DNA of 64,000 nucleotides. Origin: the human T2T-CHM13v2.0 reference genome, Homo sapiens. Made by a program: the position numbers and the translations under genes. Where the stretch lies: NCBI RefSeq assembly GCF_009914755.1, contig NC_060934.1, one strand, 5' to 3'. Shown here in pieces: positions 10,614 through 40,530 of this stretch (position 1 is the first letter of the stretch; each line of letters opens with the position of its first letter). Under the pieces are notes generated by a model. It ran no database searches and had not been told where the DNA came from. It saw only the letters and a program-made list of their open reading frames with translations.

Positions 10614-33362
<22,749 letters not shown>

Positions 33363-36284: not shown

Positions 36285-38585
36285 ACTTTAACATTCTTCA
36301 AAGAAATAGAAAACACAATCCTAAAATTTATATGGGAACCACAAAAGACTTAGAATAGTCAGCTATCCTGAGCAAAAGGAATCAAACTGGAGGAATCATA
36401 TTACCTGACTTCCAATTATTCAACAGAGCTACAGTAACCAAAACAGCATGATACTGGCATAACAACAGACACATAGGAACAGTATAGACAACCCAGAAAC
36501 AAATTCATACATCTATGGTGACCACTTTTGACAAAGGAATGAAGAACATACACTGGGGAAAAGATAATGTCTTTAATAAATGGTGCTGGGAAAACTGGAT
36601 ATCCATATGCAGAAGAATGAAACTAGACCCCCATCTCTTAGCATATACAAAAATCAAAATTAATTAAAAAGTTAAATCTAAGACCTCAAACTATGAAACA
36701 GCTAAAAGAAAACATCGGGGAATCTCTCCAGGACATTGGAGTGGGCAAAGATTTCTTGTGTAATACCTGACAAACAGGCAACCAAAGCAAAAGTGGACAA
36801 ATGGGATCACATCAAGTTAAAAATCTTCTGCATTGCAAAGGAAATAACAAAGTGAAGAGACAACCCATAGAATGTGAGATAATATTTGCAAACTATCCAT
36901 CTGTATTAGGCCATTTTTGAAGTACTACAAAGAAATACTTGAGACTGAGTAATTTATAAAGAAGAGGTTTAATTGGCTCACGGTTTTGCAGGCTGTACAG
37001 GAAGCATGGTGCTAACATCTGATCAGCTTGTAGGGAGGCATCAGGAAGTTTCCAACCATGGTGGAAGGCAAAAGGGGAATAAGTATCTCACATGGCAGGT
37101 GCAGGGCAAAGAGAGGGGGGAAGGGAAGTGCCACACAACCAGATCTTGTGAGTACTCAGATTTTGTGAGGGGTGCTTGAGGTCATGGATACCCATTTACC
37201 CTGATGTGTTTATACACATTTCATACCTGTATTAAAATATCTCATGTACCCCATAAACATATACACCTACTTTGTACCCACAAAAATTTAAAAATAAAGT
37301 TAATTTCAATGTTTAAAGACTTGTTATTAAAATAATAGCAGTTTCTATAAATTTAATATTTCAATAAAACTCCCAGTATTTATTGTTAACACTGGAAAAA
37401 GTTTTCCAAAACGTATATGGCAGAAATATGGGCCTTGATGTGAGGACAGCATCAATTAATGAGGGATCCTCTCCCTTGATCAAAACACCTTCCACCAAGA
37501 CCCACCTTTAACGCTGAGCATTACCTCTCAAAGTGAGATTTGGGCAGGGACTAATATCCAAACTGTATCAACATCTGACAAGGTGTTCACAACCAGAATA
37601 TATAAGGAGCTATAACAATTCTATAGAAAAAAAAATCTGATTTAAAACTGGGCAAAAATCTGAATAGACGTTTCTCAAAAGAAGACATACAAATGGCAAA
37701 CAGGCATATGAAAAGGTACTCAACATCATTGATCCATTAGAGAAATGCAAATCAAAACTACAATAAGATATCATCTCACCCCAGTTAAAATGTCTTCTCT
37801 CCAAAAGACAGATAATAACAAATGCTGAAGAGGATGTGGAGAAAAGGGAAACCTCGTGCACTGTGGAAATGTTATTAGTACAACCACTATGGACAACAAT
37901 TTGGAGGTACCTCAAAAACTAAAAATAGAGCTATCATACAATCCCACAATTCCACTGGTAGTTATATACCCCAAAGACAGGAAATCAGTATATTGAAGAT
38001 ATATCTGCACCGTGTTTACTGTAGCACTACTCACAATAGCCAAGATTTGGAAGCAACCTAAGTGTCTAACAGCAGATGAATGGATAAATAAAATATGGTA
38101 CATAAACACAATGGAGTACTATTCAGCCATAAAAAAGAATGAGATCCTGTCATTTGCAACATTGTAGATGGAACTAGAGATCATTAAGTGAAATAAGCCA
38201 GGCACAGCAAGACAGACATCATGTTCTGACGTATTTGTTGGAGCTAAAGATGAAAACAACTGAACTTATAGAGGGTAGAAGGATGTTTACCAGAGGCGGG
38301 AAAGGCAGTGAGGGCATGGTGAGGGGGAAGTGGGGAATGTTAACGGGCACAAAATGTAGAATGACTAAGACCTAGTATTTGATAGCACAAGGTTACTACA
38401 GTCAATAATAATTGTGCATTTTAAAGGTATAATTGAATTGTAACACAAAGGATAAATGCTTGAGGTTATGGATACCCCATTTACCCTGATGTGATTATTA
38501 GACATTGCATGCCTATATCAAAATATATCATGTACCCCATAGATATATACACCTAGTATGTACCCACAAAAATTAAAAATAAAGT
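36285..38585 (+). mobile_element. L1MA-like ORF2 3' part and 3' UTR
   Basis: L1 ORF2 motifs (aacagcatgatactggcat, aatggagtactattcagccataaaaaagaatgag) and an L1MA-type end; interrupted by an MST LTR. Confidence 0.8.
36902..37570. mobile_element. MST (MaLR) LTR split by a 268-bp insertion
   Basis: tgtattaggccatt...aatatccaaactgtatca termini; TSD ccatc/acatc. Confidence 0.75.
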
Positions 38586-39689
38586 AAAATTTCAATGATT
38601 AGGAAGACCATTGTTAATATCAGTTTCCTTTAAATGTTTCTATAAATTTAATACAATTTCAATAAAGCTCCCAATATTTATTCTTAGTACTGGAAAAAGT
38701 TTTCCAAAATGTGTATGGCAGAAATAGGGCCAAAATAGGCAAGAAAACTATTTTCGAGATGTCAGTTTTCCTCAAATTGTTCTATTAATTAAACGCCACC
38801 TGAATTAAAATTTGACAAGTGGATTATAAATTTATGTGGACATTCAAAACAATTATGGATACATGAGTCCAGAATCACAGCCATAAACCATGAGGTGCTT
38901 GGGAGATTTTCAGAAAATATGCCAATGAAATCCAAGGGGAAAGACATGTCTTCAAAAAGTGGTGTTACCTTTGACTCCCCAAAGCATATATAAAGCCTCT
39001 ACTCATCATAGATCTAAATATAAGAGCTCAAACTTAAAACTTGTAGAAGAAAACATGAGAAAATTTTTGTAGGTTTGAGTTAGATGATGATTTCTATATA
39101 GGACAATAAAAATATGGAACATACAAAAATAAATTTAATGCACTTAATTATAATACAAATGATTTACTCACTTTAAACTTTGATAAATTAGATTTTGTTA
39201 AATTCAAAAGCTTGTGTTCTTCAAAGCACACAGTTAAGGAAATGGAAAGGCGAGTAATGGACTAAAAAAAATACCTGTAAAACAGCTTTGGTTAAGAATA
39301 GAAGAAAAATCCTAATAAGAAAATTGGTGAAAGAATGGTGTGGAAAGTTCACTACAGAAAAAATATGAATGGCAAATAATCCTGATTTGGGGGAGAGTGT
39401 TCAATACCAATGCTAATTTTTTAAATGTCCTGTGTTTAATTTTTTGGAGTTTGTGATTTGCAACATGCCCCTACTGCATGGAGGGAGAGGAGATGGTAAA
39501 ATGAACAGAAGTAATAATTGTAAACATAAAATCTCAATGGGTCATAATTTTCCACAGAACAGAATAAAATGTGTAGCTGTCAATTTAAAACACCACTCAG
39601 TAGGAGCACAATACAATAATTCCACTATTCTTAATATGGGCCAAATTTCTGATCTTGAAACCAGCTCAATTTTCCTATACAATTGATGT

Positions 39690-40530
39690 TTATGGGGCTT
39701 TTTTGGGGAATAAACATAGAAATTGACTGTTAGACCATTCTTGCATTGCTATAAAGAAATACCTGAGACTGGGTAATATAAAGGAAAGAGCTTATAAAGG
39801 GAAGAGGTTTAATTGGTTCAGGTTCTGCAGGCTTTACAGGAAGCATGTTGCTGGGATCTACTTGGCTTCTGGTTGAAGCCTCAGCTTTCGGTCATAGCAG
39901 AAGGCAAAACAGGAGCAAGAGAGAGGGAGTTGGGGCAAGTGCCACATACTTTTAGATGACCAGATCTTGGGAGAATTCAGTATCAGGAAGACAGCACTAA
40001 GCCATATGAGGGTTCCATCCCCATGATCACCTCCCACCAGGACTTACCTCCAGCACTGGGAATTACATTCAACATCAGATTTAGGCAGGCAAAAATATCC
40101 AAAGTATAGGATTGACCTCCCAGTCTTAAAGGTTGAGAAATTTAACATTTGTCATCTGAGTTTCTTTCTCAATAAACCAATCGTTAGGACTCTCACATAG
40201 TTTTACGGACCTGAAACTTTACAGAGAACCACAACTGGACAATGAGACCTGTTGGCAGTTGACTAACTCCTCTTCCTTCTCTCTCATTCCTGTTTTCCCA
40301 CAGGTGGTTACAATGAGATGCTAGACCTCTCATCTAACCACCTGCTGCCTGTTGATCATCTTCCTTACTCCCCTTAATTCCTGTCTATATAAACTCCTAA
40401 CTTTAGTTGGGAGAGAGACAGATTTGACGGTTAGACTGACAGCATCCACAATAAAGCTCTTCCCTGGCAATACTCGTCTTAGTGACTGGCTTTCTGTATA
40501 GTGAGCAACCACACCTAGGCCAAACAACAC
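39690..40530. mobile_element. MER34/MER39-like LTR containing an MST LTR (39729-40110)
   Basis: aataaacatagaaattgac|MST|attgacctcccagtctt; nested with attgac duplicated. Confidence 0.6.

What the first reader, a model, noticed from the sequence alone, without database searches (positions are those of the whole stretch)
37164..38731. Local templated duplication 3: an L1-end/flank junction copied 1.3 kb upstream into an MST LTR, importing poly(A) signals
Seen: 37173-37434 matches 38457-38731, which spans the L1MA 3' terminus AND the unrelated DNA after it, so the template must be this locus or a paralog. The copy interrupts the MST LTR, is flanked by tgtgagg (37164-37170, 37439-37445), has no poly(A) tail, and carries AATAAA at 37293-37298 and 37363-37368 on the ZNF37A strand. 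Inference: a repair-templated insertion that may now define the end of the long ZNF37A 3' UTR.
Basis: partly seen in the sequence, partly recalled or inferred. Interest (0 to 1): 0.7.

Follow-up and report, generated by a model that had tools for sequence, protein, structure and literature searches.

The report
Old repair-type local DNA duplication
A 268-base piece of DNA was copied about 1.3 kb upstream into the long tail of the human ZNF37A gene tens of millions of years ago, likely during repair of a DNA break; it is an ordinary example of a known kind of local duplication, and the annotated transcript does not end at the stop signals it brought along.

Summary
The duplication is real. A 268-bp insert (37171-37438) splits an MST-type LTR between two copies of a 7-bp target word. 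Its core 37173-37434 matches 38457-38731 (83% identity, E 3e-70). The copied stretch crosses an L1 3' end and the older DNA behind it. That junction was found at only four places in the genome: this pair and the same pair in the 10q11 paralog. So the template was local, and the event is older than the paralog duplication (copy-donor distance 0.10-0.15; paralogs 0.076).

It fits the repair-mediated duplications (RDs) of Pace et al. 2009: an insert in a TE, donor under 5 kb away (peak about 1.2 kb), no poly(A), sometimes TSD plus filler. This locus is not in their chr10 list; their filters drop loci in segmental duplications.

The poly(A) inference is not supported. The selected RefSeq transcript reads through the copy and ends at 38605, 22 nt after the donor's AATAAA. 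The copy's first AATAAA is lost in the paralog. The 'unrelated' flank is a decayed repeat, probably old L1 ORF2. A small background test showed no clear excess of such events here. Verdict: new member of a known kind, low interest.

The parts
36902..37170 (+). Left part of the interrupted MST-type (MaLR) solo LTR; begins TG; family label recalled
37164..37170 (+). Target-site duplication, left copy (7 bp)
   Evidence: 10 of 23 intact LTR copies give exactly 7 bp overlap of the two halves
37171..37172 (+). 2-nt filler at the left junction (GG here, GT in the paralog)
37173..37434 (+). Acceptor copy: about 126 bp of L1 3' end plus about 136 bp of the older flank, with small deletions relative to the donor
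37293..37298 (+). AATAAA copied from the L1 end; lost in the paralog's copy; no annotated transcript end follows it
   Evidence: hub RefSeq table
37363..37368 (+). Second copied AATAAA; kept in the paralog; no annotated end follows it
37435..37438 (+). 4-nt filler at the right junction; no poly(A)
37439..37445 (+). Target-site duplication, right copy (two substitutions in the paralog)
37439..37570 (+). Right part of the LTR; ends CA; the LTR's own flanking 5-mers differ at one base
37571..38583 (+). 3' part of the host L1, into which the LTR had inserted; continuous with the donor
   Evidence: sequence read; L1 identity recalled; 36 dispersed hits to its last 126 bp
38457..38731 (+). Donor (template): L1 3' end plus older flank, continuous with its surroundings on both sides
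38578..38583 (+). Donor AATAAA; the selected RefSeq transcript ends 22 nt later at 38605
   Evidence: hub RefSeq table
38584..38900 (+). Older decayed repeat, probably two remnants of the same old L1 ORF2 stretch

Best explanation
A 268-bp stretch was copied from 1.3 kb downstream into an LTR, likely by DNA-templated repair of a staggered break or a replication template switch, and it is probably a neutral passenger in the ZNF37A 3' UTR. Shown: the order L1 > LTR inside the L1 > insert inside the LTR > duplication of the whole locus to 10q11; the direction (38457-38731 is the donor); the local template; a 7-bp target duplication; 2- and 4-nt fillers; no tail. Inferred: a free 3' end in the LTR invaded the nearby duplex in the same orientation, copied about 270 bp, was released and rejoined 7 bp behind the break (SDSA as proposed by Pace et al., or a FoSTeS/MMBIR-type switch; the sequence cannot separate them). 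Inferred age: about 28-51 Myr depending on the rate used, probably soon after the L1 and LTR had inserted. The two AATAAA came along because the template was an L1 end; the main annotated transcript ends at the original signal in the donor.
For: Junction at 4 of 4 genome-wide hits in this locus or its paralog. In the four-way alignment 27 sites group copies against donors, 0 group by paralog and 1 crosses, so one event preceded the paralog duplication. The copy interrupts an LTR that is intact elsewhere. It has gaps that the donor lacks against an unrelated old element. Gap 1023 bp, start-to-start 1284 bp, size 268 bp, no tail: inside the range of Pace's proximal RDs (peak about 1.2 kb, max 619 bp, 0 of 39 with polyA/T, 6 of 39 with a TSD). 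A near twin is in their table: a 233-bp acceptor in an MSTA with its donor 1362 bp downstream. Distances: copy-donor K2P 0.100-0.148, paralogs 0.076 over 5925 sites; ages. RefSeq end 38605 is 22 nt after the donor hexamer.
Against: No clear flanking microhomology at either junction; plain TSD+filler was 0 of 39 among Pace's proximal cases but 5 of 12 among tail-less interchromosomal ones. The anatomy (L1 3' end + flank + TSD) resembles a truncated 3' transduction. The L1 part alone matches other genomic L1 ends as well as or better than the donor (up to 91%; 87% to the donor). It shares 0 of 121 derived sites with the donor (those 16 comparison L1s were picked as best hits to the copy). So the local origin rests on the flank half and the junction. 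No other primate genome was available to see an empty site. No 3'-end data were available.
Confidence: 0.82

Rival explanations
1. L1-driven retrotransposition (5'-truncated 3' transduction, or retrocopy of the ZNF37A RNA end) that landed nearby and later lost its tail.
For: L1 3' end plus flank plus a 7-bp TSD is the outline of a transduction; the insert is sense to the transcript; TSD+filler without a tail occurred among distant events.
Against: No A-tract. The copied block ends 65 nt after the last donor AATAAA, not 10-30 nt. The target word is not a TTTT/A site (class 1 criteria from PMC5110952). Landing within about 1 kb of the source is very unlikely for genome-wide TPRT (inference).
Confidence: 0.05
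2. Repair in cis templated by nascent ZNF37A RNA or its cDNA, rather than by DNA.
For: Both sites lie in one transcription unit and the copy is in sense orientation. The block runs 126 nt past the annotated end, as nascent RNA would. RNA-derived patches at breaks are described (PMC5110952, first quarter read).
Against: No splice junction or tail marks an RNA origin. Many of Pace's proximal RDs lie outside genes, so DNA templating suffices. In the experimental system the inserts came from distant regions, not nearby.
Confidence: 0.08
3. The insertion supplied a used alternative poly(A) site that shortens the ZNF37A 3' UTR by about 1.3 kb. This is compatible with the best explanation's mechanism and differs only in function.
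For: The copied AATAAA at 37293 is the homologue of the signal used at 38578. It keeps an upstream TGTA and a T-rich downstream stretch (19 vs 18 T in 40 nt).
Against: No listed RefSeq exon ends there. The hexamer is lost in the paralog. The copy has deletions in the downstream segment. It is one of 8 AATAAA in this UTR, 4 of them upstream and also read through by the selected transcript. No paper found (3 hits, none on this by title or abstract; one checked by passage).
Confidence: 0.15
4. The template was a paralogous locus (10q11 or a lost one), not the adjacent donor.
For: The paralog also has a donor-like junction.
Against: The paralog carries both copy and donor, and the copies group together, so the event predates it. 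No other locus has the junction (the search is not exhaustive).
Confidence: 0.04

Closest known systems
Repair-mediated duplications (RDs), proximal class; Pace, Sen, Batzer, Feschotte 2009 (PMC2671141)
   Same: Insert of 50 bp or more that interrupts a TE; single donor within 5 kb (here 1023 bp gap; their peak about 1.2 kb); size under 619 bp; no polyA/T; TSD and filler among the listed signatures; divergence of 10-15% as in many of their older cases.
   Different: The donor is itself repeat-derived and the locus lies in a segmental duplication, both excluded by their pipeline. It is not among their 42 chr10 proximal rows. No clear microhomology; TSD+filler alone was not seen in their 39 inspected proximal cases.
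Templated sequence insertions, class 1 and class 2 (Onozawa and Aplan 2016, PMC5110952)
   Same: Templated patch of 70-400 bp; TSD as in class 1; no tail and filler as in class 2.
   Different: TSIPs come from distant regions and are polymorphic. This one is local and ancient, and lacks the class 1 tail and TTTT/A site.
Doublets (Thomas et al. 2004; known only through the discussion in PMC2671141)
   Same: Short local same-strand duplicate attributed to break repair.
   Different: Those were near-identical and under 100 bp; this is 268 bp and about 12% diverged.
L1 3' transduction (recalled)
   Same: L1 3' end plus downstream flank plus TSD.
   Different: No poly(A), no endonuclease site, end not 10-30 nt after a poly(A) signal, local landing.

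Membership tests
Proximal repair-mediated duplication (Pace 2009) | Insertion of at least 50 bp that splits one TE whose halves are contiguous within 30 bp of consensus | tested here: met
   268 bp; halves overlap by 7 bp in 10 of 23 intact copies
Proximal repair-mediated duplication (Pace 2009) | One identifiable donor, 50 bp to 5 kb away on the same chromosome | tested here: met
   Gap 1023 bp; 4 loci in all, 2 of them the paralog's pair
Proximal repair-mediated duplication (Pace 2009) | No polyA/T tract of 5 bp or more at the ends | tested here: met
Proximal repair-mediated duplication (Pace 2009) | At least one repair signature: filler, deletion or microhomology | tested here: met
   Filler of 2 and 4 nt; TSD of 7 bp
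Proximal repair-mediated duplication (Pace 2009) | Microhomology between acceptor and donor flanks (28 + 3 of 39 in their table; not obligatory) | tested here: inconclusive
   None visible outward from either junction; a 5-nt TGAGG is shared with the start of the donor block; divergence is about 12%
Proximal repair-mediated duplication (Pace 2009) | Empty orthologous site in an outgroup species | not testable with these tools
   No other primate genome held; intact LTR copies served instead, a substitute Pace also used
L1 TPRT product (3' transduction, class 1 TSIP) | Target-site duplication | tested here: met
L1 TPRT product (3' transduction, class 1 TSIP) | Poly(A) tail 10-30 nt after a poly(A) signal | tested here: not met
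   No tail; end 65 nt after the last AATAAA
L1 TPRT product (3' transduction, class 1 TSIP) | Insertion at a TTTT/A endonuclease site | tested here: not met
   Target word is TGTGAGG
TE-derived functional poly(A) site | Transcript cleavage 10-30 nt after the hexamer | tested here: inconclusive
   The RefSeq table shows an end after the donor hexamer and none after the copy's; 3'-seq data not available

The most novel reading that the evidence does not exclude
ZNF37A is a hot spot where breaks were patched in cis from the gene's own nascent RNA, leaving sense-oriented, TSD-flanked, tail-less local copies (this one and 12662-12817), and this copy gave 10p11 ZNF37A a used alternative poly(A) site that its paralog lost.
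Probability: 0.05. Interest if true: 0.55.

Novelty: new member of a known kind. Interest (0 to 1): 0.15.

Why it matters
As it stands, little. It is one more of the many local repair-type duplications fixed in early primate evolution (824 catalogued as a stated minimum), of a sort the 2009 catalogue filtered out: repeat-derived donor, inside a segmental duplication. It is a clean, datable example thanks to nested elements and a paralog. It would matter more if 3'-end data showed the copied signal in use, or if TSD-bearing local copies proved sense-biased in transcribed genes.

Tried and rejected
Junction as part of a repeat consensus: rejected; 0 of 16 unrelated L1 ends continue into the flank and 4 loci were found in all.

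DNA-level match of the flank to the window's own L1 ORF2 stretch: not above shuffles (62 vs mean 64). The L1 ORF2 reading rests on a weak PDB hit, 127 weak genomic hits and a match to one unrelated element (80 vs shuffle max 66).

Hot-spot idea: tested at low power. 120 random 10-kb tiles were drawn; only 5 were obtained, and the 40 chr19 KZNF tiles were not obtained. In those 5 tiles 1 pair passed the filter and was dropped as the two LTRs of one element (recognised from recalled motifs), leaving 0. In 42 short unrelated loci (131 kb) 1 RD-like pair passed (L044). The window has 2 clear events plus 1 zinc-finger-array copy. P = 0.32 (2 of 3) or 0.16 (3 of 4), post hoc: no excess shown.

Templated filler: the right-junction 7-mer recurs 41 bp downstream, too short to count.

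Listing in Pace Table S1: none of the 42 chr10 proximal rows lies between 36.7 and 54.3 Mb hg18, and no ZNF37 row exists; the hg18 position of ZNF37A is recalled.

The original paper on the ZNF33/37 duplication was not held. Literature searches for ZNF37A (30 of 116 listed), ZNF37A plus polyadenylation and ZNF37BP (12 of 16 listed) showed nothing on this insert in titles or abstract starts. Supplements of those papers were not read and could hold poly(A)-site tables.

Full report
Observation. The match is as described: 37173-37434 aligns to 38457-38731 over 277 columns at 83% (E 3e-70), with 231 of 260 ungapped columns identical. The insert is 37171-37438: a 2-nt filler, the copied block, and a 4-nt filler. 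It lies between two TGTGAGG words at 37164-37170 and 37439-37445. To test whether the 7-mer is a real target duplication I aligned the two LTR halves separately to 23 intact LTR copies from elsewhere in the genome. Ten gave an overlap of exactly 7 bp, six gave 5-10 bp, and seven gave other values, mostly with weak left-half alignments; two copies hold the same 7-mer once. Neither end has an A- or T-tract. The family names L1MA and MST are recalled; no repeat library was on hand.

Template. A genome search with the whole insert found the full block at four places: the copy and donor here, and a copy and donor at chr10:43.39 Mb. The other 36 of 40 scored hits cover only the L1 end. Searches with the junction and with the flank returned the same four, plus one 55-bp hit for the flank. 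None of 16 unrelated L1 ends continues into this flank, so the junction is not part of a repeat consensus. The tool warns that such searches are lower bounds. The flank is not unique DNA. Its translation has one weak PDB hit, 8c8j_A, an RNA-directed DNA polymerase that I recall as L1 ORF2p (E 1.3). It has 127 weak dispersed genomic hits, mostly about 40-50% identity, against 77-83% for the two copies. It aligns to an unrelated element above all 100 shuffles. A DNA comparison with the window's own L1 was not above chance. It is probably an old L1 ORF2 remnant.

Direction and order. The 38457 copy is continuous with the L1 upstream and the old flank downstream, while the 37173 copy interrupts an LTR and has gaps that the donor lacks against an unrelated old element. 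So 38457-38731 is the donor. The LTR itself sits in the L1, bounded by TG...CA with flanking 5-mers that differ at one base. The 10q11 paralog (the name ZNF37BP is recalled; the 10p11/10q11 cluster pair is described in a passage of PMC8889308) holds both copy and donor over a 6-kb alignment at 91%. In the four-way alignment 27 sites group copies against donors, 0 group by paralog and 1 crosses. One event therefore preceded the paralog duplication. K2P distances are 0.100-0.148 for copy versus donor on cleanly aligned blocks and 0.076 for the paralogs. That gives about 28 Myr at Pace's 2.2e-9 per year or 51 Myr at an assumed 1.2e-9. Copy and donor share 0 of 121 derived sites against other L1 ends. 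This suggests the copying followed soon after the L1 and LTR insertions, though those L1s were chosen as best hits to the copy.

Mechanism. Shown: local, same-strand, tail-less copy with a 7-bp duplication and short fillers. Inferred: a 3' end at a staggered break, or a stalled fork, in the LTR copied about 270 bp from the duplex 1.3 kb away and rejoined 7 bp behind (SDSA or template switching). No clear flanking microhomology survives. L1 retrotransposition fails two of three class 1 criteria in PMC5110952 (first quarter of the text read): no tail, the end lies 65 nt after the last hexamer, and there is no TTTT/A site. It would also need an improbable local landing. An RNA template in cis cannot be excluded because the block holds no splice junction.

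Poly(A) role. The hub's RefSeq table ends the selected transcript at 38605, 22 nt after the donor's AATAAA. The long UTR therefore reads through the copy, and no listed exon of the 28 transcripts ends at 37315-37390. The copy's first hexamer is destroyed by a deletion in the paralog. It is one of 8 AATAAA in this UTR. In its favour, it keeps an upstream TGTA and a T-rich downstream stretch like the donor's, so minor use is possible. No 3'-end data could be consulted, and a search for ZNF37A with polyadenylation listed 3 papers, none on this point by title or abstract (one checked by passage).

Known class. Pace et al. 2009 (PMC2671141; parts 1-6 of 8 of the text read) found such events exactly as inserts interrupting TEs. 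They report 824 with the donor within 5 kb, a peak near 1.2 kb, sizes to 619 bp, 0 of 39 inspected with polyA/T, 6 of 39 with a TSD, and the highest rate at 30-42 Mya. Against a perfect fit, TSD plus filler alone was 0 of 39 among proximal cases. Their Table S1 (120 of 127 chr10 places seen, including all on the proximal sheet) has no row here. That is expected, since loci present twice with their flanks were discarded. It does list a near twin in an MSTA with the donor 1362 bp downstream.

Surroundings. The window holds a second clear event: 10834-10989 copied to 12662-12817, 90% identical, with a flanking duplication matching at 22 of 26 bases, also present in the paralog. It also holds a copy of zinc-finger repeats at about 33068-33327. 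A small background test used 5 of 120 drawn random tiles plus 42 short loci. It found 1 RD-like pair in about 100 kb of effective sequence after one LTR pair was dropped, and showed no significant excess (P 0.32 or 0.16). The test has low power.

Verdict. Real, ancient, local repair-type duplication; new member of a known kind; poly(A) function not supported. Interest 0.15.

Noticed in passing
window 10834-10989 and 12662-12817: Second RD-type event in a ZNF37A intron: a 156-bp piece of a dispersed repeat copied 1.8 kb downstream into an antisense L1-like stretch. 90% identity (other genomic copies 82% or less), flanking duplication 22 of 26 bases (13 exact), apparent microhomology at both ends; present in the paralog.
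   Followed up: partly
window 32404-32656 and 33068-33327: Degenerate copy of about three zinc-finger repeats in the 3' UTR with a scrambled 40-bp middle and no TSD; may be ordinary array duplication.
   Followed up: partly
window 38590-38745 and 38750-38900: Both stretches align to the same part of one unrelated old element (L029), so the flank holds two remnants of one old L1-like segment side by side.
   Followed up: partly
L044 328-465 and 1953-2084 (G000:C21:13593137-13596252): 138-bp direct local duplicate, 89% identity, 1.5 kb apart, no other hit among the loci held; another RD candidate.
   Followed up: partly
window 39730-40108: A second MST-type LTR 2.8 kb downstream of the interrupted one.
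   Followed up: no
L030 (paralog), right end of the LTR: The paralog diverges from the window just after the LTR's right end, over about 30 bp; a small later rearrangement, not studied.
   Followed up: no
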